A stretch of DNA of 10,716 nt, taken from positions 1 to 10,716 of the forward strand of contig CBDDUX010000088.1 of NCBI GenBank assembly GCA_965234725.1, read 5' to 3'. Each line of letters opens with the position of its first letter. The first letter of the stretch is position 1. A program made the translations under genes and the position numbers. The notes under the pieces were generated by a model. The model made no database searches. It saw nothing but the letters and a program-made list of their open reading frames with translations, and had not been told where the DNA came from. Of this stretch, positions 1 through 10,436 are shown one piece after another. Source of the DNA: Thermoplasmatota archaeon (GTDB taxonomy: Archaea; Thermoplasmatota; Penumbrarchaeia; Penumbrarchaeales; Penumbrarchaeaceae).

Positions 1-465
1 ACTAACAATAACGAGTTCTGCCCTGCCAATTGTCTTCGCCCCGAAGAAGTTTAAAACCACAAAAACCGAGATCAATATGGTTTCGGTTGCTGCCATAGAG
101 ATGAAGTTCACATTCAATCCCATAAATGGCAGAAAATACCCAGCGAAACCTTTGAGAAACAATGAGATGGAAACAATGTAACTCACAAGTATCAGGATAC
201 TCATTGTTCCTGTCCAGATATTATCCCCTATCCCCTTGATGATGAACTCTATAGGCCCTGAATTGGAAGTGATCTTCGAGCTCAACTTTGAGTAGGAATA
301 AGCGACCATTAACGCAAGCGAAGAGGAAATAAGGAAAGCGATAGGGAGGTTGGGACCAGCGATCTTAACTCCAACTCCGAAAACGGAGAAGATGCTGGCT
401 CCTATCATTGTTCCGACTCCGATCGAAACAGCTTCTATCAATCCGATCTTATTACCCTTCATCAT
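1..465 (-). CDS. APC-superfamily amino acid permease, ApcT/MJ0609-like; only the N-terminal 155 codons are present, the gene runs off the left edge
   Basis: Absent from the ORF track, so translated by hand from ATG at 465: MMKGNKIGLIEAVSIGVGTMIGASIFSVFGVGVKIAGPNLPIAFLISSSLALMVAYSYSKLSSKITSNSGPIEFIIKGIGDNIWTGTMSILILVSYIVSISLFLKGFAGYFLP...LNFFGAKTIGRAELVIVS, open to base 1. TM1 motif MIGASIFS and the segments AYSY, GDN and KGFAGYFLP match my recollection of Methanocaldococcus ApcT. Confidence 0.93.
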   Translation of the reverse strand, partial: MMKGNKIGLIEAVSIGVGTMIGASIFSVFGVGVKIAGPNLPIAFLISSSLALMVAYSYSKLSSKITSNSGPIEFIIKGIGDNIWTGTMSILILVSYIVSISLFLKGFAGYFLPFMGLNVNFISMAATETILISVFVVLNFFGAKTIGRAELVIVS

Positions 466-1001: not shown

Positions 1002-1010
1002 TTTCAGCTG

Positions 1011-1016
1011 CCTCCT
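1011..1016 (-). promoter_or_regulatory. Shine-Dalgarno site (AGGAGG) of the USP gene
   Basis: + strand cctcct at 1011-1016, 9 nt upstream of the ATG at 1001. Confidence 0.75.
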
Positions 1017-1278
1017 TGTTCTTTTAACTGCTTAACTTGATCTTTTTGGAATACCTATTTCGATATTGAAAATTCTTCCATTCAATGAGACCGTTTTCTC
1101 TTGAATTCAATTCTATGAAAGCCCTTATTAGGGACAATTTTTGTGAATTGTTACTTTTTTCCGGATCATTTGTGATGATCCCACCTTCTTCGCTCCTCGA
1201 AGGGCTGGGGGATCAGAGGGTTCTTCACAGGACCTTCCTAGTTCCTCAGTCTGGAAACCTCATAAGATTTTGCATTAG

Positions 1279-1300
1279 TACATGTTTTGATTAACATGTA
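1279..1300. repeat. Perfect inverted repeat TACATGTT-N6-AACATGTA, candidate operator
   Basis: Arms at 1279-1286 and 1293-1300; another TACATGT at 1341-1347. The regulatory role is inference. Confidence 0.45.
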
Positions 1301-1572
1301 AGTCAAATCTCAATATATTCGGGCTTCTTCTTGAAATATTTACATGTCACAAAAAAAAGCATTGGTGGCTCACATTTGTGTCAAACCTGTGGAAATTGCT
1401 GAGGCCATTGATATTGAATATGGATCATGATTTGACCATGTTTTGGGGTGGAGATATCATGGCTCGTCAAGAATGCTTTGTGGTATAGCCAGGCTATTTC
1501 TCAATGATATTATATGAGCGCTAGAGGAAAGTGATATTCGTGGTAATTACCCAAGGTCCTTTAAACTTTAAT

Positions 1573-2064
1573 TCAATCTGTTGTGAAATCGTCTGGAAGG
1601 TAGATCCAACCTGAACGATCACCTTTGTAAAGTATGCCTATCGTTGCACCTTCATATTCCTCTGTAAGACTGGTTATCACAATATTATCTGTCGGATCTG
1701 CAGTTTCGGGATTCCCAGAGAAATCATCATGCCACACTGAAACAATTCCAAATCTGGAGGGTTCATTTTCATATTCATAGGGTGTGGCACTTGGAATATC
1801 AATATAATCCCCAATTTTTACGGAAATAGTAATAAGAATCCATTTATAGTCCATGTCATAAGGATCGATATCATCGATCGTTATATGTGCATCCCAGACC
1901 GTAACATTGTCCTGGTCCCTTGATTCGACCTTTTCTATCATAAGTGTGAATCTTACCTTTACCCCGTCTTCCCTACCGGGTTCAGAGCAGCCTGCCATCA
2001 TTAGCATTGGAATGATCAGTGAAATGGGTATCAGGGCTTTGATAAAATTATTCTCGATCCTCAT
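1573..2064 (-). CDS. Predicted lipoprotein / surface protein of unknown function
   Basis: Hydrophobic leader ending in a lipobox-like MAG-C26 (ALIPISLIIPMLMMAGC). Acidic mature domain with beta-strand patterning. GGTGG SD-like element and TATA-like box upstream. Confidence 0.8.
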   Translation of the reverse strand: MRIENNFIKALIPISLIIPMLMMAGCSEPGREDGVKVRFTLMIEKVESRDQDNVTVWDAHITIDDIDPYDMDYKWILITISVKIGDYIDIPSATPYEYENEPSRFGIVSVWHDDFSGNPETADPTDNIVITSLTEEYEGATIGILYKGDRSGWIYLPDDFTTD

Positions 2065-2444: not shown

Positions 2445-5400
2445 TCATTCTTCATCAAGCAATCCTTTCCTTGGTTTCACCATAATGATAATAATTACGG
2501 CTCCAAGGATCAATATGATTACAAGGACCAATACAATGACGAACAGAAGATACGGGAATCCATTTTCTTTATCATCATCCTTATCGTCATCATCATCATC
2601 TTGGTCCGCAACCTCGACAACGGTCACCACCATAGTATCTGTATCCCAAAGACCTGCATTACTGGTAACGTTCAGAGTGATAGTGTAATTCCCCGGTATT
2701 TCAAAGTGGTGTAAGGGGGATACCCCGTCAAGGATAACATCTTCGTATCCGTCATTGAATGTCCATGTGTAGGTCACGATCCCGATCTCATCCGTACTAC
2801 CGCTTCCGTCGAAAGTGACATTTGTTCCCTTTTCCACAGTCTGGTCCGGACCGGCGTTGGCTGTAGGTGCGGAAATGATCGAAACGGTTGTGATGGCCTC
2901 GGATAATTGATCTTTCTCTTCCCTATGACCTACATAATCGGTTGCTACCGAGTAGAAACCGTATGTGCTGTTCACGGTTCCATTGAATTCCGAGGATGTG
3001 AGGTTGGTTCCCTCCAGCCAGAGGGTCCATGGTTCTTCATTCTCCTTCAGATAGATGTCATATCCGGCAATCCCAGAACCTCCTTCATCGTCCTGACCAC
3101 TCCAGGAAACAGTAAAATTCTGGCCTTCATGTTCGGTCAAAGCATTCACCTGGCTTTCAGGTGGTCCCGCATCGATAGTGACCAGGGCCTCGAGGTCCGG
3201 AGAGGTTCCTTTTGACCTATCAAGAGGATCGATCTGATTGGTGTCTATCTCCATGCCTAGATTGAACTGTATGGTTGCAACGTTCCTGATCTCTGTCCCA
3301 CTAGGAAGGTCAGATCTCGGATCGATGTTGTACATGAAGTATCCCTGCCCCCTTCCAGTGTCATCTTCCGGTGGAAGGAATCCAATGTTCACCTCCGGTG
3401 GTAGTTGGGTGATCGGGTCTATGGAATCTATCATCACGAATACCTCACCTTTTGTTGTGTCGATCTCCCCAATGATGTGCAATTCGATCTCCATATCGTA
3501 ATCGTCGTCCTTGTAGCTGTATTCCATGACCTCATCAACATATGTTGTCCCCGGTTCCAGCGGTAATGCAAAATCCCCGAATCCAATTTCTGTGAACTCG
3601 AACGTGGACCAGTCGAGGTCCTCCGATAACGGATCCAATATAGTCACGATTTGAGCGGGAGCTGTTGCCTCTTCCATATTCTCGAATTCGACGATATAGG
3701 AAAGTTGTGTCCCTTCAGCCACATGGTTTCCTGGACCGATACCCATCAAGCATTCCTTGTGATTGGGATCCAGTGGGGTCAGCGTGTTCGCCGGCTCGAA
3801 GTCAAATAGTGAGGCGATAAACTTGATCCCTTTGTAGATCCCAACAGCAGCGATCACCACGGCTGCACCAATTAAAAGGGGAGCGGCGATAGGAGCCACT
3901 GCCGCGAGAGTACCAAGCGATAATAAGGTGCTAACCCCCGTGACTATATCCACTCCCGCTCCTACGAATTGGGCATCAGTTGAACTTATAAAATTGCTGG
4001 AGGCACCTTCAGCTAACGTTCCCCATGGGACGTAATTACTTGCCGCACTGGCGAAAAGACCTTCCGGGTCGACAAGGTTTGTTGGAGAATTGTGGACATA
4101 TCGATAGAGGTTGAGATCGTTGCCGCCGATCCCTAAGGGGTCCATGGAGGTGAAGCGTCCTGTTTGTGGATCGTATTGCCTTGCCCGCATGTGGACAAGA
4201 CCCGTCGTATCGGTCATCACACCTTTCTCTCCGACGAACCTGAAAGGATTGGGAACTGATCCCTGCTCTGAAATGATATCTCCGAAGGGCATATAGGAGT
4301 ATGAATTCACCGATGCTCCCGTGGAGTCTGTAAGTTCCTGCGTATTTCCCATCAGATCGAAATTGTAGAAATAGGATTCCCCGGTTCCTGTTTCCATACT
4401 AACAAGGTCTGAACCGTAGATGTACCTTGACATCATCGTGCCGTTCTCATCGTAAGCACCTACCACCTCTCCCATTCCCATCGGGTCAACCACAAGATAT
4501 GATGAATTGCCGTTTTCGGTGATGGAAACACGGTTTCCCAGTCCGTCGTAGGTGTATGACCAGATGTCCTCCCCTTTGGAAACACTGATCAGACGATTAT
4601 CATCATTGTAGGTATAAGTGGTTGTGCCATTTGGTCCTGCTTCCGATATAAGATTTCCATCAGAATCGTAGGTATAGCTCACATTTCCGACCATTATGTA
4701 TTGGTTGAGTTCGTTGGATTGATAGAATTCCTCTACCCCGTTCAATACGGTTCGGACCCGATTGCCCATGGAGTCATAATTATATTCAATGTCCTGAGCA
4801 GGGGCCTCGGGGTCCCTGCAAGGATCGAAAACTGCTTTGACGAGTTGATCCCTGTCATCGTAAGAATAGTGCCAGTTTCCTTCTCGGTTACTGGTGTTTT
4901 TTATCCTTCCACAGGCATCATAGGTGTATCTGAACCATGAAATGACCGTTTCGTCGGGTTTGAAATTCGCCAGTTTCGTGATCCTTCCGGCGGCATCATA
5001 CCCATAAGTGGTATACACTCCATTCTCCAAGGTTTTTGTGGACAATCTTCCCAGCGGATCATATTCATACTTGACAATGTCGATTCCGGTGGATGTCATC
5101 AATCCTTCAAGACGACCAGCGTGATCATAATCGTAGTTTATCCTGTTCCCCAGATGATCGATGCTTGCGCTTCTGCGACGAGCATTATCGTATGTGAACG
5201 ACAACCACTGCCCATTAGGATAGTCTATATGGGTCAGGAGATCGTTGGAGTTGTAGGTATAGTTCGTCACCCCTGTCGAATCCTCCATGGATATCAGGTT
5301 CCCTCTATCGTCATAATTGTAAACAATCTCCGAACCATCCGTATATCTCTTCGAGGTGATCCTCCCTTTGGAATCATGGGAGAAGCTGGTTGTGTTACCC

Positions 5401-8400
5401 CGCCTGTTCGTCAAGGTGATGAGGTTTCCCTTTTCATCATATGATCCGGTCTCTGCGCTTCCGTCAGGATGTATGATCCCGATCAAATTGCCATTATCGT
5501 CAAGGTCGTATCCCATACTGGACCCGTCAGGATAGATGATCCGTTCCATCAGATCGAGTTCCTGATCATATTTGACCTGATATTCATAACCTGCTCTGTC
5601 CTTCATTTCTATAATATTCCCTTTGAAATTGTCGTACTCTATCGATAATCCGGCCGGATCCGTGATCGTTTCTATCATTCCCAGTCCATCGTATATGACA
5701 CAGTAAGAATCACCAAGTGCATTATCGTATCTGATCACTCTTCCCTGATGGTCATGGAAGAACCGTTCTGTGTTTCCAAGAAGATCGGTTATCCTCACCA
5801 AGCCCTGACCATATACGAAGGTGTGCCTCTCCAGTTCTTCTTCACGGTAATGGGAACTGATAGCTCCGTGGCTGTTGTAGGTTATGTATATCCTGCTATC
5901 TCCCAGGGGTGTGATGCCAGTGAGAGCATGTTCCGATGGCGATCCTTCTGTTTTGTCATAGTAGTAGACTTCATTATATCCATCGAAGTATTCAACGGAT
6001 GTCAGATATCCGTCGTCATATGAGTAGGTGTTTGTCCTATCATAACTATCGGTAATTTGGTCTATCAATCCGTCCCCGTTGTAAGATATCTGTATGTATG
6101 ACCCGGATGAATGGACCAGTTTGCCCAGGGAACCATCGACATATTGACAGGTTATACTGTTCCCGTTAGTGTCCTCGATGTAACCAAGGGTCCCGTCGGA
6201 ATTGAAGAACAGTGTGTTCCCATATTTCTCCTGAAGTATGAAATTATCCAGCGGAGTCTTTTTCAGTTTTCCCCAATCTCCAGGTTGGGACATGTAGGCG
6301 TTATATGATCTGACATTTGGTTGGAAGATCCGTACATTTCCTGTGTTGTCCTTTATTTTAACAGTCCCGTCAACTTCCTTCTCTAGGGAATATTGCCAGT
6401 TGTGCATCCAACCCCGTCCCAGATCTCCCTCCTCAAATCGCCTCGAGATCGAGTTTGGATAGTATCGTTCTAAGGTAAGGTCCAGACCAGGGTCATCGAG
6501 TCCGATATCATTTCTGGAATACACGGATGAATATGGTGTCCAGCCATTGGCCTGTTGCAAAGTCAAAGACAGAATCTCATCGACATCCTCGATCCTTTGT
6601 CCAAACTGGTATAGATGTAATGCGTTATCATTCAAGGTTTGTATGAAATCTCCGTATGTGGGTCCGATCTCATTCTTGAAATTTTCCCAGATGACATTCC
6701 AAGCATCTTCACTAATATCTTCAGGGATCATTTTTTCCTTGGCCCCATCCCAATCCATTATATTGTCATCCTCTTCGGTGATAATATAAAGCTGCCATTC
6801 CAGATCCGATCCGAATGCGGGATAGGGCGGCTCCCAACCGGCATAATAGATCGGGATCCTCCTGGTCTCCCCCGCTTGAAGAATACCGGGTATCTCTCCC
6901 GAGGCCAGTATCATTAGTTCGTTTTGGAATCCTTCCGGTACAAGGTCTGCCGGGGTTTCCGGTATGGTGCCAGCCTTCATACCGGCTGTCCATATCCCAT
7001 ATTCCAACCGAGCTTCATCATGTGTGAGCATGCAACCCCGCCTATCATCCGGACCTGAAATGGCTGTCAAAAATAGAAGGGGGGCCCTCATAGAAATATC
7101 ACCCGTATTCGCATATTCCACATACACTATGGAATGCTCATGGTAACCCGTCCATGGTCCGGGGTCGATACTTGCTTCGAATTTTGCCTCTCCTTCTTCC
7201 AGGATCTCCAGGGAATCCTTCAGTTCTGAAGAACCATTTCCTGGACGGACCACACGGGTATCATAGATATCTACGGGAAGGAGGTTCCCCTTTACATAGG
7301 CAATTATCAGATTGGGAGTGTTTACATTGACCAGTGGTACTTCATAGTTTGTGCCATCCGATCCGACGAAGATAACCTGGAGGGGTTCTGCAAAACCAAT
7401 TCCCCTGAGAATCAGATCCACGGGGACACCGATTATATGTCTTGAGGGTGCCACATCTTCCAGAATCAGTTCCACGACATCGAATTTTATTGAAAAGCTG
7501 CCGGAATCGACCATGTCATCCCCATGAACCAGGACATACCATTTTCCGGAATAAGCTGATTGAACTGATAATTCCCCATTGTCGGAATGATGATCATGTT
7601 TGGACCTTGTGGGGAGGTCTCCGTGTCTTACCATCATCTCCAAGCCGTCAGGACCTTCCAGGGTCAGGTGGATGTTCTTGGAGGAGGGAAGTTTGATCAT
7701 GTAATACTGGTCTAACGTTCCGATTGGGTACTCACTGTTATGTTCGATCCCCTCCTTGAGTTCAGGAATTGCTATGTTGAAGGTCACCTCTTTCTCATTG
7801 TTCAGACGGTGTCTTTCCACAAAGGACCATTCATCGTTGGCAGACATTATCAGGTAATAGGGTCCCTCGACCAAGGGTGGAATGGTGATGTTCAGGAACC
7901 ATGCATAACCTCCGTTTTTTGATATATTCTTTGAAACGATCGTAGAATTCAACATCATATCCATTGAATCAAGATAAGGATCATTGGAGAGATAGATGGA
8001 ATCCTTCCAGGTCTCTCCGGTCACTGTTGCCTCTTCAGAATTGACAACGGTGTAGGTTATCGCCGCGGTTTCGTCGATTGCCAATGTTTCAGGGACGTTG
8101 ATACTGGTTACCCTCAGGTCCGGAAAAGATGGTGTACCATCGATGACATCGAAACTCATTGTATCCTTTTTCAGATATTCCTTACGGTTCAGGGTGAAGG
8201 AATATGAGATATCTTCAGTACCTGGAGAAGAGAATTGGATCAAACCCGGGTTCTTTGATGAGGAGGTCCTGTCGTCACCGAATGTCCAGAGATATCCTAT
8301 ATTCGGATCAGGTGAGGAGGATCCCCTGAATCTCAATGAGTCACCTTCCACCAGGGTGCCGATATGCTTTGGTGAAAGGATCCTTGCTCCTTGTGCATTC

Positions 8401-10100
8401 AGTAATGCCTGGAGATAGGGAAAATCCTCACCTTCGATAATCCCCCATACATTGCTGAAATCCCATGATACATAGGTTACCCTGGATCTCATCTCGATCG
8501 TGGTCTTTCCCTCACCGCCTTCTGATTCGGTCTGTCCGGAGGTATCAATGTTCCAGTAACAGTGTTCGAACGATCCCTCTTTTTCACCTAGGGATTGATT
8601 GACTCCTACAAAGCCTCCGATATCATTTTCCGTATCGCCGACTTCACCGATGGAATAGCAATTGGATGCCGTCCCCCCATTATTGGATCCTATGAATCCC
8701 CCGACCTCCGCTGATCCGATAACGTTGGATACGGAGTAACAATTCTTGACCGGACCGTAATTATATCCCGCAAACCCGCCGACAGCCACTTTTGCTCCAG
8801 TTACATTCCCGGATGAGAAACATCCTATGATATTAGAATCGGTTTGAGTACCCCATCCCCCATATCCCCCCACAAATCCTCCAACATGATTGGCCCCGTA
8901 AACATCTCCCGTCGAAAAGCAATTTGCAATGTCACCAGTGGAGTGCCCCAACAAGCCTCCCACACTATCCCCCATTCCGCTGACTTCACCCGTTGAGTGA
9001 CTGTTCGAAACGTTACAATAATTATCGCCAATCAGTCCTCCAACAAAACCTCCTCCGTAAACATCTCCCGTCGAATAGCAATTTGCAATGTCACCAGTGG
9101 AGACCCCCAACAGGCCTCCTACTCGACCTTCCATTCCACGAATATCACCGGTGGAGTGACAATTTAAAACGTTACCTTCATTCCACCCTATCAGTCCTCC
9201 AACATAATCCGTTCCGTATACACTTCCCGTTGCGTAGCAATCCGAGATGCTCGCTTCGTTATTCCGTCCTATCAAACCACCACCTGCAACGTCAGAGTTC
9301 ACTTCACAGGTGGAGTAGGAATTGTTGATGAATCCACCGCCATTTGCACCTATCAATCCACCTGTGTAAAAACTGCCTGTAACAATACCTGTCGAGGAGC
9401 AATCTTCAACTTTGCCATTATTTACCCCGATCAAACCCCCAATATTATCCAAAGTGCCAAGATCATTCAGATTCACATCCGTGTGGCAATTGATCACAGA
9501 TCCCTGATCATTGGCTCCTACAAGGCCGCCCACACCACCCACACCGGAAACGCTTCCCTGGAAAAAGCAATTCGAGATCAACCCCTCATTATATCCAACC
9601 AGGCCTCCAACCGTGTACCCAACCGTATTATTCCCCTCTATTTCCAATCCCATCAATTCAAGATCCATGACCCGCCCCTCGGATCCAATATATCCGAACA
9701 ATCCGCTAGATGGTGATATGATGGAGGAATTTTCAAGATCATAGATGTAAATTCCCGAAATGGTGTGGCCATTTCCGCCCAAGCTGCCCGTGAACGGATG
9801 CTCTGTCCAACCAGATATATCATAAAACTTCTCGCCGATGGGGATGAAACCCGCACCATCGTTCCATGTTTTCGTTTCCGATGCATCGATGTCGTTTCCA
9901 AGAATAAAATGAGCACTCAGGTTTTCATTCATCGCCTGCAGATCCCACACGTCTTCAATGACATAGGGATCATTCACGGTCCCTGACCCCCCACCAAAGT
10001 CCCCATCTATGCCATCGACCCCTATCTGATCTATCATCGGGAATGATGATAGGAGCATGATCCCTATTAGTAAACACGCGATTACGGCCTTGTATCTCAT
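2445..10100 (-). CDS. Giant (2551 aa) secreted, C-terminally membrane-anchored RHS/YD-repeat protein with GLUG, PKD, CARDB, PPC-like, Ig-like and FN3-like domains
   Basis: Uninterrupted 7.6-kb ORF with AGGTGA SD. Signal peptide MRYKAVIACLLIGIMLLSS; VGGLIG (GLUG) repeats; PDLRVTSI...ERHRLNN (CARDB); many YD repeats; RHS core PFRFVGE...RARQYDPQTGRFTSMDPLG...NLYRYVHNSPTNLVDPEGL; PTANAGPDQ (PKD); C-terminal TM followed by KPRK. Confidence 0.95.
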   Translation of the reverse strand: MRYKAVIACLLIGIMLLSSFPMIDQIGVDGIDGDFGGGSGTVNDPYVIEDVWDLQAMNENLSAHFILGNDIDASETKTWNDGAGFIPIGEKFYDISGWTEHPFTGSLGGNGHTISGIYIYDLENSSIISPSSGLFGYIGSEGRVMDLELMGLEIEGNNTVGYTVGGLVGYNEGLISNCFFQGSVSGVGGVGGLVGANDQGSVINCHTDVNLNDLGTLDNIGGLIGVNNGKVEDCSSTGIVTGSFYTGGLIGANGGGFINNSYSTCEVNSDVAGGGLIGRNNEASISDCYATGSVYGTDYVGGLIGWNEGNVLNCHSTGDIRGMEGRVGGLLGVSTGDIANCYSTGDVYGGGFVGGLIGDNYCNVSNSHSTGEVSGMGDSVGGLLGHSTGDIANCFSTGDVYGANHVGGFVGGYGGWGTQTDSNIIGCFSSGNVTGAKVAVGGFAGYNYGPVKNCYSVSNVIGSAEVGGFIGSNNGGTASNCYSIGEVGDTENDIGGFVGVNQSLGEKEGSFEHCYWNIDTSGQTESEGGEGKTTIEMRSRVTYVSWDFSNVWGIIEGEDFPYLQALLNAQGARILSPKHIGTLVEGDSLRFRGSSSPDPNIGYLWTFGDDRTSSSKNPGLIQFSSPGTEDISYSFTLNRKEYLKKDTMSFDVIDGTPSFPDLRVTSINVPETLAIDETAAITYTVVNSEEATVTGETWKDSIYLSNDPYLDSMDMMLNSTIVSKNISKNGGYAWFLNITIPPLVEGPYYLIMSANDEWSFVERHRLNNEKEVTFNIAIPELKEGIEHNSEYPIGTLDQYYMIKLPSSKNIHLTLEGPDGLEMMVRHGDLPTRSKHDHHSDNGELSVQSAYSGKWYVLVHGDDMVDSGSFSIKFDVVELILEDVAPSRHIIGVPVDLILRGIGFAEPLQVIFVGSDGTNYEVPLVNVNTPNLIIAYVKGNLLPVDIYDTRVVRPGNGSSELKDSLEILEEGEAKFEASIDPGPWTGYHEHSIVYVEYANTGDISMRAPLLFLTAISGPDDRRGCMLTHDEARLEYGIWTAGMKAGTIPETPADLVPEGFQNELMILASGEIPGILQAGETRRIPIYYAGWEPPYPAFGSDLEWQLYIITEEDDNIMDWDGAKEKMIPEDISEDAWNVIWENFKNEIGPTYGDFIQTLNDNALHLYQFGQRIEDVDEILSLTLQQANGWTPYSSVYSRNDIGLDDPGLDLTLERYYPNSISRRFEEGDLGRGWMHNWQYSLEKEVDGTVKIKDNTGNVRIFQPNVRSYNAYMSQPGDWGKLKKTPLDNFILQEKYGNTLFFNSDGTLGYIEDTNGNSITCQYVDGSLGKLVHSSGSYIQISYNGDGLIDQITDSYDRTNTYSYDDGYLTSVEYFDGYNEVYYYDKTEGSPSEHALTGITPLGDSRIYITYNSHGAISSHYREEELERHTFVYGQGLVRITDLLGNTERFFHDHQGRVIRYDNALGDSYCVIYDGLGMIETITDPAGLSIEYDNFKGNIIEMKDRAGYEYQVKYDQELDLMERIIYPDGSSMGYDLDDNGNLIGIIHPDGSAETGSYDEKGNLITLTNRRGNTTSFSHDSKGRITSKRYTDGSEIVYNYDDRGNLISMEDSTGVTNYTYNSNDLLTHIDYPNGQWLSFTYDNARRRSASIDHLGNRINYDYDHAGRLEGLMTSTGIDIVKYEYDPLGRLSTKTLENGVYTTYGYDAAGRITKLANFKPDETVISWFRYTYDACGRIKNTSNREGNWHYSYDDRDQLVKAVFDPCRDPEAPAQDIEYNYDSMGNRVRTVLNGVEEFYQSNELNQYIMVGNVSYTYDSDGNLISEAGPNGTTTYTYNDDNRLISVSKGEDIWSYTYDGLGNRVSITENGNSSYLVVDPMGMGEVVGAYDENGTMMSRYIYGSDLVSMETGTGESYFYNFDLMGNTQELTDSTGASVNSYSYMPFGDIISEQGSVPNPFRFVGEKGVMTDTTGLVHMRARQYDPQTGRFTSMDPLGIGGNDLNLYRYVHNSPTNLVDPEGLFASAASNYVPWGTLAEGASSNFISSTDAQFVGAGVDIVTGVSTLLSLGTLAAVAPIAAPLLIGAAVVIAAVGIYKGIKFIASLFDFEPANTLTPLDPNHKECLMGIGPGNHVAEGTQLSYIVEFENMEEATAPAQIVTILDPLSEDLDWSTFEFTEIGFGDFALPLEPGTTYVDEVMEYSYKDDDYDMEIELHIIGEIDTTKGEVFVMIDSIDPITQLPPEVNIGFLPPEDDTGRGQGYFMYNIDPRSDLPSGTEIRNVATIQFNLGMEIDTNQIDPLDRSKGTSPDLEALVTIDAGPPESQVNALTEHEGQNFTVSWSGQDDEGGSGIAGYDIYLKENEEPWTLWLEGTNLTSSEFNGTVNSTYGFYSVATDYVGHREEKDQLSEAITTVSIISAPTANAGPDQTVEKGTNVTFDGSGSTDEIGIVTYTWTFNDGYEDVILDGVSPLHHFEIPGNYTITLNVTSNAGLWDTDTMVVTVVEVADQDDDDDDKDDDKENGFPYLLFVIVLVLVIILILGAVIIIIMVKPRKGLLDEE
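2478..2606 (-). other. C-terminal poly-Asp linker and transmembrane anchor of the giant protein
   Basis: DQDDDDDDKDDDKE (2565-2606), then FPYLLFVIVLVLVIILILGAVIIIIMV (2478-2558), then KPRK, which fits the positive-inside rule. Confidence 0.9.
2619..3173 (-). other. FN3-like domain (~2883-3173) followed by a PKD domain (~2619-2870)
   Basis: FTVSWSGQDDEGGSGIAGYDIY...YGFYSVATDYVGHRE (FN3-like) and APTANAGPDQTV...VTFDGSGSTD...YTWTF...PGNYTITLNVT (PKD). Boundaries are approximate. Confidence 0.75.
3174..3770 (-). other. DPNxK / YxxxFEN domain (DUF7619-like Ig-type domain)
   Basis: DPNHK...LSYIVEFENMEEATAPAQIVTILDPLSEDLDWSTF...GFLPP...GQGYFMYNI...IRNVATIQF. The family name is from memory of the DPNDK/YTIRFxN motif and needs an HMM check. 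Confidence 0.6.
4056..6520 (-). other. RHS/YD shell: DUF6531-like start, YD repeats, and RHS repeat-associated core with aspartyl autoprotease motif
   Basis: LTLERYY...GDLGRGWMHNW at the start; repeated YDxxGRL/YDxxGNL units; core DPLG (D1987, nt 4140-4142) and DPEGL (D2011-L2015, nt 4056-4070). Confidence 0.92.
7195..8390 (-). other. Stalk of beta-sandwich domains: PKD-like (~8145-8390), CARDB (~7765-8123), PPC-like (~7476-7765), IPT/TIG-like (~7195-7470)
   Basis: YLWTFGDD; PDLRVTSINVP...YTVVN...WKDSIYLSND...GPYYLIMSAN...NNE; YYMI...MVRHGDLPT...GKWYVLVHG; LEDVAPS...LILRGIGF...YDTRVV. Boundaries are approximate. Confidence 0.65.
8412..9998 (-). repeat. GLUG-motif repeat beta-helix (N-terminal adhesin-like domain, residues ~35-563)
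   Basis: Cap GSGTVNDPYVI...LQAM...LGNDID; ~26-28-aa repeats VGG(L/F)(I/V)GxNxGxIxNCYSTGxV; terminal cap WDFSNVW...PYL. Confidence 0.9.
8896..9213. repeat. Tandem 159-bp (53-codon) duplication within the GLUG region
   Basis: 8896-8960 vs 9055-9119 match at 61 of 65 nt; atcagtcctccaaca at 9031-9045 recurs at 9190-9204 with the same 159-nt offset. Confidence 0.85.
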
Positions 10101-10148: not shown

Positions 10149-10436
10149 TCAGTTCTTTCTTATTGATGCTATCATCAGAGCTGTAGTCACAATGGTGCCG
10201 ATCAATAATGATATCTCGAAACCGTGACTATCGTCTTTGTCACAAGCTTCTTTCTCTGCATGATCGGAATGATCATAAGTCGTCTCCAATACAAGTGATG
10301 GATCGGTTGGTTTTTCAGATCCCTGATCGACATTTTTCGGAGGTGTACTATCATTTCCAACTGCCAATGGAATTGATATCAAGTATAGAAACAGACCTGT
10401 TGCTACCAGCATGATTGGAGCTTTTTGACATTTCAT
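10149..10436 (-). CDS. Small secreted protein with C-terminal TM anchor (PGF-CTERM-like, HGFE variant)
   Basis: Signal peptide MKCQKAPIMLVATGLFLYLISIPLAVG, acidic low-complexity middle, then HGFE-ISLLIGTIVTTALMIASI-RKN. Co-oriented, 48 nt upstream of the RHS gene; GAAGGA just upstream of its ATG. Confidence 0.7.
   Translation of the reverse strand: MKCQKAPIMLVATGLFLYLISIPLAVGNDSTPPKNVDQGSEKPTDPSLVLETTYDHSDHAEKEACDKDDSHGFEISLLIGTIVTTALMIASIRKN

What the first reader, a model, noticed from the sequence alone, without database searches (positions are those of the whole stretch)
2445..10100. Membrane-tethered RHS protein with an internal cargo: adhesin tip, self-cleaving YD cocoon, and anchored C-terminal stalk
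Seen: signal peptide, GLUG beta-helix, Ig-like stalk, about 820 aa of RHS/YD shell with both catalytic-type motifs (DPLG-x20-DPEGL), then 536 more residues ending in a TM helix plus KPRK. Established: in Rhs/WapA/TcC toxins the DPxG(L) core cleaves itself, the downstream toxin is the end of the protein and sits inside the shell, and in interbacterial Rhs systems an immunity gene usually follows directly. In teneurins the chain instead exits the YD shell, and the anchor is N-terminal. Inference: three folded domains and a TM cannot be encapsulated, so the chain must thread out of the shell. Cleavage after L2015 would give a 2015-aa adhesin+shell cap held non-covalently on a 536-aa type-I membrane stalk. 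This suggests a contact-triggered surface device in a probable archaeon rather than a released toxin. Bacterial CARDB-RHS-DPNDK proteins exist to my recollection, so the core may not be new, but I know of no functional description of this anchored form.
Basis: partly seen in the sequence, partly recalled or inferred. Interest (0 to 1): 0.88.

Follow-up and report, generated by a model that had tools for sequence, protein, structure and literature searches.

The report
Anchored RHS capsule with threaded tail
A giant archaeal surface protein has a self-cleaving RHS protein capsule in the middle of its chain, followed by a stalk and a membrane anchor, and it belongs to a large, mostly bacterial family that appears not to have been described.

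Summary
Window 2445-10100 (minus strand) is one intact 2551-aa ORF with this order of parts: signal peptide, GLUG beta-helix, Ig-like domains, an 823-aa RHS shell, a complete Rhs core (DPLG-x20-DPEGL), then 536 more residues ending in a TM helix.

- The 95 residues after the cleavage site are a Gly/Ala-rich, TM-like hydrophobic peptide.
- The "DPNxK" domain is DUF7619, a predicted isopeptide-locked stalk domain.

The gene is not a mis-join. 107 of 120 listed homologues and 63 of 79 fetched genome loci show the same order: core, then a 47-201 aa hypervariable linker, then DUF7619-FN3, then a variable tail. The family is mostly bacterial, and the window's copy sits in a Thermoplasmatota clade.

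Catalytic R/D/D are kept in 71-72 of 72 aligned members, so self-cleavage is likely. Linker size fits an Rhs cavity and the 58-kDa tail does not, so I infer a teneurin-like thread-out. Cleavage, linker enclosure and the exit site are not shown. AlphaFold2 gave pLDDT 24-36 for the linker, and the complex test never ran.

Verdict: a new variant of a known kind.

The parts
2445..10100 (-). Whole ORF, 2551 aa (279.0 kDa, pI 4.24), including the stop codon at 2445-2447
   Evidence: GC is uniform along the gene at 0.46-0.48.
10020..10100 (-). N-terminal Sec-type signal peptide, about residues 1-27. The cleavage site was not predicted.
   Evidence: Hydrophobic window 1-28, Kyte-Doolittle maximum 2.45. 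Close relatives have similar N-termini.
8421..9983 (-). GLUG-motif beta-helix region, about residues 40-560. This is the variable tip of the protein.
   Evidence: Pfam Glug E 1.4e-34, 5 stretches. In relatives this position holds other adhesion-type domains such as Beta_helix, CARDB and dockerin.
7101..8420 (-). Ig-like section, residues 561-1000 (PKD-like, CARDB-like, PPC-like, IPT-like). The family-conserved block starts here.
   Evidence: Weak Pfam matches: PKD_4 E 0.0021, CARDB E 0.011, PPC E 0.02. The region is conserved in the family consensus.
6525..7100 (-). Conserved pre-shell region, residues 1001-1192, with no Pfam name
   Evidence: Family consensus motifs such as GYH..YVEY.NTG and LQPGES.RVPVYYAGW. 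70% identical to P0002.
4296..6524 (-). RHS/YD-repeat shell, residues 1193-1935, with the DUF6531 N-terminal plug at 1193-1259
   Evidence: Pfam RHS_repeat E 2.8e-43 and DUF6531 E 2.3e-07. AlphaFold2 pLDDT is mostly 85-95 with all-beta hairpins. Foldseek best hits are T6SS Rhs cores at E 1.4e-54. PDB sequence hits are RhsP 8h8a at E 1.6e-50 and the BiTLP entry 9ifo at E 4.8e-39.
4056..4295 (-). Rhs-associated core (C-terminal plug and aspartyl autoprotease), residues 1936-2015. Key residues are R1974, D1987 (DPLG) and D2011 (DPEGL). The predicted scissile bond is L2015|F2016.
   Evidence: TIGR03696 E 1.3e-21, full profile length. Conservation across 72 aligned members: R1974 72/72, D1987 71/72, D2011 72/72, G2014 72/72.
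3771..4055 (-). Post-core linker, residues 2016-2110 (9.4 kDa). It is Gly/Ala-rich and hydrophobic, with a TM-like stretch at 2050-2099. It is the proposed content of the capsule.
   Evidence: It is the least conserved segment: 37% identity against 79-85% in the flanks. It lies within the family size range of 52-201 aa. AlphaFold2 predicts helices with pLDDT 24-66.
3126..3770 (-). DUF7619 domain, residues 2111-2325. It is a predicted CnaA-like isopeptide domain with candidate triad K2115 / D2156 / N2273.
   Evidence: Pfam E 1.6e-15. The triad is assigned by profile position, using PMC12617251. Conservation: 62/72, 68/72 and 70/72; the DPN motif is 72/72. AlphaFold2 pLDDT 87-98.
2874..3125 (-). 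FN3-like domain, residues 2326-2409. It is conserved together with DUF7619 as one module.
   Evidence: PDB sequence match to titin FN3 at E 1.8e-11. Family consensus WSG.DD.GGSGI..YD.YVS. pLDDT above 90.
2610..2873 (-). PKD domain, residues 2410-2497
   Evidence: Pfam PKD_4 E 1.6e-24. PDB sequence matches to collagenase and KIAA0319L PKD domains.
2553..2609 (-). Acidic spacer, residues 2498-2516 (the D/K-rich stretch DQDDDDDDKDDDKEN)
   Evidence: Read directly from the translation.
2448..2552 (-). C-terminal TM helix (about 2517-2542) followed by KPRKGLLDEE
   Evidence: Kyte-Doolittle maximum 3.87. AlphaFold2 helix at 2516-2541 with pLDDT 77-91. The same TM + basic + ..EE ending occurs in L001, L002, L004 and L006. 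No known sorting-signal family matches.
10149..10436 (-). Upstream neighbour, 48 nt away: a small secreted protein of 95 aa with a PGF/Heimdall-CTERM-like tail. It is syntenic in L002 and L003. It may be co-transcribed; that is not shown.
   Evidence: The L003 homologue matches Heimdall-CTERM at 25.2 bits against a cut-off of 24.
1573..2064 (-). Downstream neighbour, 380 nt away: a lipoprotein-like ORF of 163 aa with no family match. It is a weak candidate for a partner or immunity protein.
   Evidence: No Pfam or NCBIfam match. A homologue occurs in only 1 of 79 loci (L003, 52.5% identity, E 6e-39).

Best explanation
This is an intact gene for a Sec-exported, C-terminally membrane-anchored surface protein of a Thermoplasmatota archaeon. 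It belongs to a large, mostly bacterial family in which a complete RHS capsule sits in the middle of the chain rather than at its end.

Shown here:
- The domain order.
- The complete Rhs autoprotease core, with its Arg and two Asp kept in nearly all family members.
- A short, hypervariable linker of limited size after the core, followed by a highly conserved DUF7619-FN3 module.
- A lineage-specific C-terminal end.

Inferred:
1. The shell folds around the 95-aa Gly/Ala-rich hydrophobic linker (2016-2110).
2. The chain then leaves the shell, as it does in teneurins. It continues as a load-bearing stalk: DUF7619 (probably locked by a K2115-N2273 isopeptide bond), then FN3, PKD, an acidic spacer and the TM helix.
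3. The core cuts L2015|F2016. The mature protein is then a 221-kDa cap (adhesin tip plus capsule) held non-covalently on a 58-kDa stalk, because the stalk's new N-terminal peptide stays plugged inside the capsule.
4. The joint is a separable latch. Pulling or ligand binding at the tip would uncap the stalk and expose a membrane-active peptide close to whatever the tip has bound.

I rate steps 1-3 as likely and step 4 as speculative.
For: The architecture is real and recurrent:
- 107 of 120 listed homologues show the same order.
- 99 of 104 pattern matches in GTDB species genomes encode relatives.
- 63 of 79 loci show core, linker, then DUF7619 within a single ORF.

The catalytic set is kept: R1974 72/72, D1987 71/72, D2011 72/72.

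The size argument:
- 203 non-identical linkers span 52-201 aa with a median of 133. The region after the start of DUF7619 varies from 316 to 1479 aa.
- Published cavities of about 32,000-35,000 A3 hold 15-16 kDa cargo (PMC10684867, passages).
- The teneurin internal linker inside the shell is about 126 aa (PMC5851990, passages).
- The enclosed BiTLP C-terminal domain is 92 aa, hydrophobic, has a predicted TM segment, and permeabilises membranes (PMC13018210, Results read).
- The tail here is 57.9 kDa and the linker is 9.4 kDa.

The linker is the fastest-evolving segment: 37% identity against 79-85% in the flanks, and 136 of 203 linkers are BLASTP singletons. Its hydrophobic Gly/Ala character is nevertheless kept in all close archaeal relatives.

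On a crude insertion scale the linker scores +0.6 and the real C-terminal anchor scores -7.7. The scale values were recalled from memory.

The stalk:
- DUF7619 is listed as a predicted Lys/Asp/Asn isopeptide domain (PMC12617251).
- The triad is conserved at 62, 68 and 70 of 72.
- DUF7619-FN3 is modelled at pLDDT 87-98.
- Foldseek neighbours include isopeptide-bearing pilins and adhesins.

The shell is modelled at pLDDT 85-95 and matches Rhs cores at E 1e-54.
Against: - Nothing here shows cleavage.
- AlphaFold2 placed the linker and the last residues of the core with pLDDT 24-36. No coordinates or PAE were available, so I could not see whether the linker lies inside the shell or where the chain exits.
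- Four family members (P0152, P0170, P0179, P0226) keep the RHS repeats and the tail but lack a canonical core. Three of them keep a hydrophobic linker. A free N-terminus is therefore not always needed.
- 138 of 203 linkers have no TM-like window, so membrane activity cannot be the general role of the linker.
- No toxin domain is present.
- There is no conserved immunity gene.
- The linker has no relative outside its own family.
- A segment scoring 2.47 on the Kyte-Doolittle scale could act as a stop-transfer signal during Sec export.
- Bacterial teneurin-like shells were reported to have no opening (PMC13018210).
Confidence: 0.55

Rival explanations
1. A purely structural, teneurin-like adhesin. 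The RHS shell is a rigid scaffold, the linker is inert filler that seals the shell, the chain is functionally continuous whether or not it is cut, and there is no latch or effector role.
For: - Every domain after the core is of an adhesin or stalk type.
- The linkers are Gly/Ala/Pro-rich and of low complexity: G 12.8%, A 10.3%, P 9.4%.
- The teneurin linker is described as sealing gaps in the shell (PMC5851990).
- Four members lack the cleavage core.
- No immunity gene is conserved.
Against: - The Arg/Asp/Asp set is kept in 71-72 of 72 members. That is hard to explain if cleavage has no function. In teneurins, which are not cleaved, the site is only partly conserved (PMC5851990).
- The hydrophobic character of the linker is retained across the archaeal clade even though identity is only 23-37%.
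Confidence: 0.2
2. The hydrophobic stretch 2050-2099 is a helical hairpin in the producer's own membrane. The protein would then have three membrane segments. The capsule would sit directly on the membrane and would be shed by self-cleavage.
For: - Kyte-Doolittle maximum of 2.47 over about 50 residues.
- AlphaFold2 predicts two long helices at 2040-2063 and 2073-2099.
- A hairpin would keep DUF7619, FN3 and PKD outside the cell and KPRK inside.
Against: - On the crude insertion scale the best window scores +0.6 and the first half +3.5, against -7.7 for the true anchor. The scale values were recalled.
- The two Lys residues after the second helix would lie outside the cell, contrary to the usual positive-inside distribution.
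- Most family linkers are not hydrophobic (138 of 203), and most family members have no TM helix at all.
- A Sec-exported teneurin-like protein carries a comparable TM-like C-terminal domain inside its shell (PMC13018210).
Confidence: 0.1
3. A classical polymorphic toxin. The linker is a small membrane-depolarising toxin aimed at competitors, the downstream 163-aa lipoprotein is its immunity protein, and the tail only keeps the weapon on the cell surface.
For: - The hypervariable segment begins exactly at the DPxGL site.
- Tse5-CT and the BiTLP C-terminal domain are precedents.
- The linker is hydrophobic and Gly/Ala-rich.
- The lipoprotein-like ORF co-occurs in L003, whose linker is also hydrophobic.
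Against: - The peptide stays covalently tied to a 45-kDa stalk and to the producer's own membrane, so it cannot be released freely.
- The lipoprotein is absent from L002, L004 and L006, which have similar linkers. Overall it is found in 1 of 79 loci.
- No toxin family matches.
- Uncleavable variants keep the same kind of linker.
Confidence: 0.12
4. An artefact. A mis-assembly or a lost stop codon has fused an ordinary RHS toxin gene to an unrelated surface-protein gene.
For: The source is a metagenome-type contig of 10.7 kb, and a 536-aa extension after an Rhs core is unusual.
Against: - The same junction occurs in 107 of 120 listed homologues and in 63 of 79 loci from many phyla, including isolate genomes such as Syntrophorhabdus aromaticivorans UI and Stieleria sedimenti.
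- GC content is uniform across the junction.
- The closest relatives are 68-74% identical straight through the junction.
Confidence: 0.01

Closest known systems
Rhs polymorphic toxins with solved structures (RhsA 7q97, Rhs1/Tre23 7pq5, RhsP 8h8a, Tse5 8cp6, Tse15)
   Same: - A single-chain YD-repeat shell, a DUF6531-type N-terminal plug and an Rhs core with DPxG-x20-DPxGL plus Arg.
- A short, hypervariable, sometimes hydrophobic segment directly after the cleavage site.
   Different: - In those proteins the segment after the core is the end of the protein and is a 15-16 kDa toxin. Here it is followed by about 440 more residues of conserved stalk domains and a TM anchor.
- There is no PAAR, VgrG or T6SS context. 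Export is by a Sec signal peptide.
- There is no conserved immunity gene.
Bacterial teneurin-like proteins (BiTLP, PDB 9ifo/9pt5; PMC13018210)
   Same: - Sec-exported surface proteins with N-terminal adhesion domains, a YD shell and a retained DPxG-x20-DPxG autoprotease.
- The BiTLP C-terminal domain is 92 aa, hydrophobic, has a predicted TM segment and is fully enclosed. The linker here is 95 aa with the same character.
- The shells match by sequence at E 4.8e-39.
   Different: - Teneurin-like proteins are defined by FN-plug + NHL + YD shell. No NHL domain is found here.
- The C-terminal domains of teneurin-like proteins end the protein, and no opening in the shell was seen. Here the chain must continue to a 45-kDa ectodomain.
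- Teneurin-like proteins have an adjacent immunity gene. This locus does not.
Metazoan teneurins (for example 6fb3; PMC5851990)
   Same: - After the Rhs core, an internal linker of about 126 aa lies inside the shell, and the chain then threads out to folded domains outside it. This is the topology I infer here. The median linker length in the family is 133 aa.
- Teneurins are membrane-anchored adhesion proteins.
   Different: - Teneurins are anchored at the N-terminus (type II). They are not cleaved at the core, and the site is only partly conserved. The domains outside the shell are ABD and Tox-GHH.
- Here the anchor is C-terminal, the catalytic residues are nearly invariant, and the domains outside the shell are DUF7619, FN3 and PKD.
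- Thread-out is not shown here.
TcB-TcC cocoons of ABC toxins (4o9x, 4igl)
   Same: RHS shell and aspartyl autoprotease core. Foldseek E about 1e-30 and PDB sequence E about 1e-11 for the core.
   Different: The Tc cocoon is made of two proteins, encloses a hypervariable region of about 30 kDa, and docks on the TcA injector. None of these features is present here.
Isopeptide-stabilised stalks of fibrillar adhesins (CLIPPER/DUF11, CLIPPER_2, DUF7619; PMC12617251)
   Same: - DUF7619 matches above the Pfam cut-off (57.8 bits against 27).
- The Lys/Asp/Asn positions are conserved.
- It sits in a stalk next to FN3 and PKD domains and a C-terminal anchor. The paper describes this kind of context for such domains.
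   Different: - That paper reports DUF7619 in Gram-negative bacteria and does not list it among the families found in archaea.
- The term 'RHS' does not occur in its main text (0 occurrences).
- Here a single DUF7619 sits immediately after an RHS capsule rather than in a tandem array.

Membership tests
Rhs/YD-repeat capsule proteins (RHS superfamily) | YD/RHS repeats that form a closed beta-spiral shell | tested here: met
   Pfam RHS_repeat E 2.8e-43 and TIGR01643 E 8.7e-31. The AlphaFold2 shell has pLDDT 85-95. Foldseek top hits are Rhs cores at E 1.4e-54, although TM-scores are only 0.33-0.46. Closure of the shell could not be inspected because no coordinates were available.
Rhs/YD-repeat capsule proteins (RHS superfamily) | N-terminal plug domain (DUF6531 type) | tested here: met
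   Pfam DUF6531 at 1193-1259, E 2.3e-07, 31.5 bits against a cut-off of 24.1.
Rhs/YD-repeat capsule proteins (RHS superfamily) | Rhs-associated core with the two DPxG aspartates and the conserved Arg | tested here: met
   TIGR03696 E 1.3e-21 over the whole profile. D1987, D2011 and R1974 are present and conserved in 71, 72 and 72 of 72 members.
Rhs/YD-repeat capsule proteins (RHS superfamily) | Autoproteolysis after DPxGL | not testable with these tools
   This needs protein chemistry. I infer it only from the conservation of the motif.
Polymorphic Rhs/WapA/TcC toxin systems | [quoted passage not shown] | tested here: not met
   536 residues (57.9 kDa) follow the core. They consist of the linker, DUF7619, FN3, PKD and a TM helix. 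No toxin family matches.
Polymorphic Rhs/WapA/TcC toxin systems | A cognate immunity gene directly downstream | tested here: not met
   The next ORF lies 380 nt downstream and has no family match. It recurs in 1 of 79 related loci. L002, L004 and L006 have unrelated downstream neighbours.
Teneurin / bacterial teneurin-like superfold | FN-plug + NHL beta-propeller + YD shell (the definition used in PMC13018210) | tested here: not met
   There is no NHL match in Pfam, and the plug is DUF6531. The precomputed TEN_YD-shell (PF25023) label applies to the shell only.
Teneurin / bacterial teneurin-like superfold | An internal linker inside the shell, after which the chain threads out (metazoan teneurins) | tested here: inconclusive
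   Sizes are consistent with it. However, the linker was modelled at pLDDT 24-36 and no coordinates could be inspected.
DUF7619 (PF24595), CnaA-like predicted isopeptide domain | Match to the family profile above the curated cut-off | tested here: met
   57.8 bits against a cut-off of 27, E 1.6e-15, profile positions 1-58 aligned from residue 2111.
DUF7619 (PF24595), CnaA-like predicted isopeptide domain | Lys (first strand), catalytic Asp and Asn triad | tested here: met
   K2115 falls at profile position 5, as does Lys657 of the paper's example, whose domain starts at 653. K2115, D2156 and N2273 are conserved in 62, 68 and 70 of 72 members. I assigned the Asp and the Asn from conservation, not from a structure superposition.
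DUF7619 (PF24595), CnaA-like predicted isopeptide domain | An isopeptide bond is actually formed | not testable with these tools
   This needs mass spectrometry or a crystal structure. The model's side-chain distances could not be read.
Archaeosortase-type C-terminal sorting signals (PGF-CTERM and relatives) | Match to a CTERM sorting-domain model at the C-terminus | tested here: not met
   An NCBIfam scan of the last 61 residues gave only generic TM-like hits, all below their cut-offs. The upstream neighbour's L003 homologue does match Heimdall-CTERM, at 25.2 bits against 24.

The most novel reading that the evidence does not exclude
The mature protein is a caged membrane harpoon. Self-cleavage leaves a stalk with a TM helix in the producer's membrane and, at its other end, a Gly/Ala-rich hydrophobic peptide hidden inside the RHS capsule. 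When the adhesin tip binds a neighbouring cell and the cap is pulled or triggered off, the peptide is exposed within about one stalk length of the bound surface and inserts into that cell's membrane. That would bridge or perturb the two membranes.

The layout consists of a receptor-binding cap held non-covalently on a membrane-anchored subunit whose cleavage-generated N-terminus is a hydrophobic peptide. It resembles class I viral fusion glycoproteins. That comparison comes from my recollection, not from any tool call.

If true, RHS capsules would serve as reusable cages for tethered, contact-activated membrane-active peptides in archaea and bacteria. Thread-out from a YD shell would then be a prokaryotic invention that predates teneurins.
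Probability: 0.12. Interest if true: 0.9.

Novelty: new variant of a known kind. Interest (0 to 1): 0.62.

Why it matters
RHS capsules are understood as containers whose cargo is the end of the protein. The one known exception, the teneurin thread-out, has been treated as a metazoan feature. The 2026 cryo-EM study of bacterial teneurin-like proteins found no opening in the shell (PMC13018210).

The family described here has these properties:
- 2,235 representative clusters match the tail module at E <= 1e-30.
- 56 of 121 newly listed representatives have an RHS core directly upstream of that module.
- Members occur in at least ten phyla.
- The autoprotease is kept, yet 316-1479 residues of folded surface domains follow the start of DUF7619.

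If the chain really leaves the shell, thread-out exists widely in prokaryotes together with self-cleavage. That would give a two-piece surface protein joined only by a peptide plugged into a capsule. It would be a concrete, testable system for two open questions that the teneurin-like protein paper itself names: how RHS cargo is held and how it is released.

The finding also places a predicted isopeptide stalk domain (DUF7619) in archaea and next to RHS capsules. In the passages I read, the isopeptide survey reports neither.

Tried and rejected
1. Complex prediction, shell 1170-2015 against linker 2016-2159. The job was never accepted because the queue was full. There is no verdict, and retention of the tail by the cap stays untested.

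2. Locating the linker in the AlphaFold2 model. The tool returns no coordinates or PAE and nothing was written to /data. The linker pLDDT was 24-36 in any case.

3. Looking for the linker elsewhere.
- The search for homologous proteins on residues 2016-2110 found only the query itself at E <= 0.01, among 512 candidates.
- The PDB sequence search found nothing at E <= 10.
- The ESM Atlas gave only scores of 0.83-0.87, with glycine-zipper and colicin-like clusters among them. These are below the level the tool treats as evidence.

4. Split-gene forms. The short representatives that lack a core start inside linker-like sequence and have no signal peptide, so they look like fragments. I did not run a 'shorter' search with the search for homologous proteins.

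5. Mis-join hypothesis. Rejected.

6. The tail as cargo. Rejected on size.

7. A known archaeal sorting signal at the C-terminus. Not found.

8. tRNA and Rfam scans of the window. Nothing found.

9. Literature searches.
- 'DUF7619' gave one work.
- These searches gave no description of an RHS core followed by DUF7619 or by a membrane anchor: Rhs/isopeptide/YD repeat/adhesin; polymorphic toxin/archaea/RHS; Rhs/'outside the shell'/C-terminal; RHS/Thermoplasmat/adhesin, 0 papers; Rhs-associated core/transmembrane/anchored/archaeal.
- The passages shown from Zhang et al. 2012 did not describe it either.
- Subscription journals and supplements were not searched.

10. Alignment size limits. Searches exceeded size limits. 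I cut the alignment from 82 rows to 72, then 54, then 33 before folding. The model therefore rests on 33 rows.

Treat its values as rough.

Full report
**1. The observation**

Window 2445..10100 (minus strand) is a single 2551-aa ORF with an ATG start and no internal stop.
- Glug motifs, E 1.4e-34.
- DUF6531 plug at 1193-1259.
- RHS repeats, E 2.8e-43.
- A full-length Rhs-associated core at 1936-2015, TIGR03696 E 1.3e-21.
- DUF7619 from residue 2111.
- PKD at 2410-2494.

A motif scan finds DPLG at 1987, DPEGL at 2011-2015 and DPNHK at 2111. The protein ends 536 residues after L2015, in a very hydrophobic helix followed by KPRK.

Two things were missed.
- Residues 2050-2099, directly after the cleavage motif, form a TM-like Gly/Ala-rich stretch with a Kyte-Doolittle maximum of 2.47. 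74% of the 95-aa linker is G/A/S/T/V/I/L.
- The "DPNxK domain" is Pfam DUF7619. A 2025 survey lists it as a predicted CnaA-like intramolecular isopeptide domain with a Lys/Asp/Asn triad (PMC12617251, passages read).

**2. Not an artefact: a large family**

A search with residues 1930-2551 gave 583 hits at E <= 1e-3 among 7,999 scored candidates. Of the 120 listed, 107 (including the query) have an Rhs core, then a 73-190 aa gap, then DPNxK/DUF7619, then 316-1479 further residues. The other 13 matched only the PKD part or DUF7619.

A scan of one genome per GTDB species used a single conserved pattern from the family. It found 104 stretches, and 99 of them encode relatives. 79 loci were kept. 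In 63 of the 79, the longest ORF carries core, linker and DUF7619 in order. The other 16 were fragmentary or lacked one element.

Hosts include Planctomycetota, Verrucomicrobiota, Chloroflexota, Thermodesulfobacteriota, Hydrogenedentota, Lentisphaerota, Bacillota, Pseudomonadota, Thermoplasmatota and one Methanoregulaceae genome.

A search of 1.84 billion cluster representatives with residues 2016-2410 gave 10,604 hits at E <= 1e-3, 7,391 at E <= 1e-10 and 2,235 at E <= 1e-30. The matches mostly cover DUF7619+FN3 and not the linker. The 121 newly listed representatives break down as follows:
- 56 have an Rhs core just upstream.
- 48 are short and start inside linker-like sequence with no signal peptide, so they look like fragments.
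- 17 are long proteins without a detectable core.

GC content is uniform along the gene at 0.46-0.48, slightly above the neighbouring genes at 0.40-0.44.

**3. Host and context**

A quick maximum-likelihood tree of the DUF7619-FN3 module had 64 rows, all with a match of at least 250 residues. It places the window with five Thermoplasmatota loci (SH-aLRT 98). That clade is nested (97) among Verrucomicrobiota, Chloroflexota, Thermodesulfobacteriota and Hydrogenedentota. The tree is unrooted. The nearest relatives are L001 (74% identity) and L002 (70%).

- Upstream, 48 nt away, lies a small secreted protein with a PGF/Heimdall-CTERM-like tail. It is syntenic in L002 and L003.
- Downstream, 380 nt away, lies a 163-aa lipoprotein-like ORF with no family match. 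It recurs only in L003, that is in 1 of 79 loci.
- Further downstream are a universal stress protein gene and an amino-acid permease gene.

I see no conserved immunity-type gene.

**4. What is conserved and what is not**

In a 72-row family alignment:

| Residue or motif | Conserved in |
|---|---|
| R1974 | 72/72 |
| D1987 | 71/72 |
| D2011 | 72/72 |
| G2014 | 72/72 |
| L2015 | 53/72 |
| DPN 2111-2113 | 72/72 |
| K2115 | 62/72 |
| D2156 | 68/72 |
| N2273 | 70/72 |

Against the closest relative P0002, identity by region is core 79%, linker 37%, DUF7619 80%, FN3 68%. Against L001 the first three are 81%, 37% and 85%. The linker is therefore a fast-evolving island between the two best-conserved parts of the protein.

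Across 203 non-identical linkers:
- Length is 52-201 aa with a median of 133.
- Composition is G 12.8%, A 10.3%, P 9.4%.
- 136 are BLASTP singletons at E <= 1e-3.
- 65 have a Kyte-Doolittle window of at least 1.6, and 19 of at least 2.0.

The window's linker belongs to the largest similarity cluster (23 members). It can be aligned with those of the other Thermoplasmatota proteins, which all keep the Gly/Ala hydrophobic character.

C-terminal ends differ by lineage. Thermoplasmatota have a TM helix plus basic residues plus a final ..DEE/EEE. Some bacteria have PEP-CTERM-like or dockerin-like ends, and many have no anchor.

**5. Structure predictions**

Residues 1170-2340, with a 33-row alignment, gave mean pLDDT 78.9 and pTM 0.66.
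- The shell is confident, mostly 85-95.
- DUF7619 is at 68-91.
- Residues 2002-2108 (the end of the core and the whole linker) are at 24-36.

Foldseek against the PDB ranks T6SS Rhs cores first (E 1.4e-54, TM 0.33-0.46). Then come RhsA, Tse15, Tre23, RhsP, Tse5, BiTLP, the teneurins and TcB-TcC.

The tail alone (2016-2551, 43-row alignment) gave these values:
- pLDDT 87-98 for DUF7619+FN3.
- About 50 for PKD.
- 77-91 for the TM helix at 2516-2541.
- Low-confidence helices in the linker.

Its Foldseek neighbours are generic tandem Ig/FN3 proteins, among them isopeptide-bearing adhesins and pilins (BspA, AspA, PrgB, LrpA, EbpC, SpaD, GBS80, BcpA), at E 1e-5 to 1e-7 and low TM-scores.

The tools return no coordinates.

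**6. Mechanism**

Shown: the architecture, the conservation pattern and the sizes. The rest is inferred.

The tail cannot be cargo. It is 57.9 kDa. Rhs cavities of about 32,000-35,000 A3 hold 15-16 kDa (PMC10684867), and the C-terminal domains of teneurin-like proteins average about 15 kDa (PMC13018210).

The linker is the right size for a capsule's content. It is 9.4 kDa here and never exceeds 201 aa in the family. For comparison, the BiTLP C-terminal domain is 92 aa, hydrophobic and enclosed, and the teneurin internal linker is about 126 aa.

I therefore infer three things:
- The shell encloses the linker.
- The chain threads out, as in teneurins.
- The conserved DUF7619-FN3 module, probably locked by an isopeptide bond, forms the load-bearing stalk that leads to the anchor.

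Near-invariance of the catalytic Arg/Asp/Asp argues that most members cut themselves at DPxGL. That gives a 221-kDa cap held on a 58-kDa stalk by a plugged-in peptide.

On a crude insertion scale (values recalled from memory) the linker's best window scores +0.6 and the true anchor scores -7.7. That fits a marginally hydrophobic, potentially membrane-active peptide better than a permanent TM hairpin.

**7. Evidence that cuts the other way**

- Pfam scans covered 16 of the 17 long representatives without a core; P0155 was not scanned. They showed that P0152, P0170, P0179 and P0226 have RHS repeats, and three of them also have DUF6531. None of the four has a canonical core. P0152, P0170 and P0179 keep a Gly/Ala hydrophobic linker before DPNQK. 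A free N-terminus is therefore not always required.
- The other 12 scanned proteins are non-RHS giant surface proteins, so DUF7619/FN3 is also a general stalk module.
- Most family linkers are not hydrophobic.
- No toxin family, no immunity gene and no outside relative of the linker was found.
- Bacterial teneurin-like shells showed no opening.
- The complex prediction that might have tested retention never ran (see Tried and rejected).

**8. Comparison and novelty**

The protein meets every testable criterion for an RHS capsule protein. It fails the two criteria that define polymorphic Rhs toxins: the cargo is not the end of the protein, and there is no adjacent immunity gene. It also fails the definition of a teneurin-like protein because it has no NHL domain.

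It works most like a teneurin in inferred topology, combined with an Rhs toxin in its retained autoprotease. It is attached to a fibrillar-adhesin stalk.

Six literature searches found no description of an Rhs core followed by DUF7619 or by a membrane anchor, and neither did the passages read. The isopeptide survey's main text does not contain the term 'RHS', and it does not list DUF7619 among the archaeal families. The library lacks most subscription journals, and I read no supplements, so an earlier description cannot be excluded.

I rate the finding as a new variant of a known kind, with interest 0.62. The family and its architecture are solid and unexpected for RHS biology, but the mechanism that would make it remarkable is still inference.

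Noticed in passing
window 2448-2552 (-); L001 3-2714; L002 6641-14140; L004 2-1066 and 2174-9286; L006 3150-10013 and 10671-14714: Seven large Thermoplasmatota surface proteins end the same way: a TM helix, a short R/K cluster, and a final acidic ..DEE/EEE/KEE/MEE at the very C-terminus. Besides the RHS proteins, they include one unrelated neighbouring gene in each of L004 and L006. No NCBIfam sorting-signal model matches the window's copy. This may be a lineage-specific anchoring or sorting signature.
   Followed up: partly
window 10149-10436 (-); L002 5850-6605; L003 5813-6592: The upstream neighbour is a small secreted protein with a PGF/Heimdall-CTERM-like tail. It is syntenic in three loci. 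The window's copy is 95 aa against 251-259 aa elsewhere, and only the two ends align, so about 165 internal residues are missing.
   Followed up: partly
L068 (Methanoregulaceae) and L053 (Syntrophorhabdus aromaticivorans UI): The only methanogen copy groups with Syntrophorhabdus (SH-aLRT 93) and is far from the Thermoplasmatota clade. This suggests a second, separate arrival of the family in archaea, possibly between organisms that share a habitat. The tree is unrooted and was built in quick mode.
   Followed up: partly
P0001 residues 2111-2115 (window 3756-3770): The Asp-Pro-Asn at the start of DUF7619 is invariant (72/72), while the presumed isopeptide Lys two residues later is only 62/72, replaced by L, M or A in the rest. 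DPN therefore seems to have a role beyond positioning the Lys. It might mark the exit point from the shell or a structural cap. This is unexplained.
   Followed up: no
L003 6641-13924: The L003 homologue (P0005) ends inside its PKD domain with no acidic spacer or TM helix, unlike its relatives. This is probably a frameshift or truncation in that assembly.
   Followed up: no
L010, L012, L016, L018 (Verrucomicrobiota), C-termini of the main ORFs: Four verrucomicrobial members end in a shared motif..RFYRVR[IV][ED]. It may be a lineage-specific C-terminal signal.
   Followed up: no
window 1002-1572 and 2065-2444: Two AT-rich gaps (GC 0.377 and 0.332) contain no convincing ORF, no tRNA and no Rfam match. 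They are presumably promoter or terminator regions. Archaeal promoters were not scanned.
   Followed up: partly
P0001 residues about 640-1192 (window 6525-8183): The block before the shell (CARDB-like, PPC-like, IPT-like domains and an unnamed region with GYH..YVEY.NTG and LQPGES.RVPVYYAGW motifs) is conserved across the whole family together with the shell and the tail. The conserved unit is thus about 1,700 aa, and only the extreme N- and C-terminal parts vary.
   Followed up: partly
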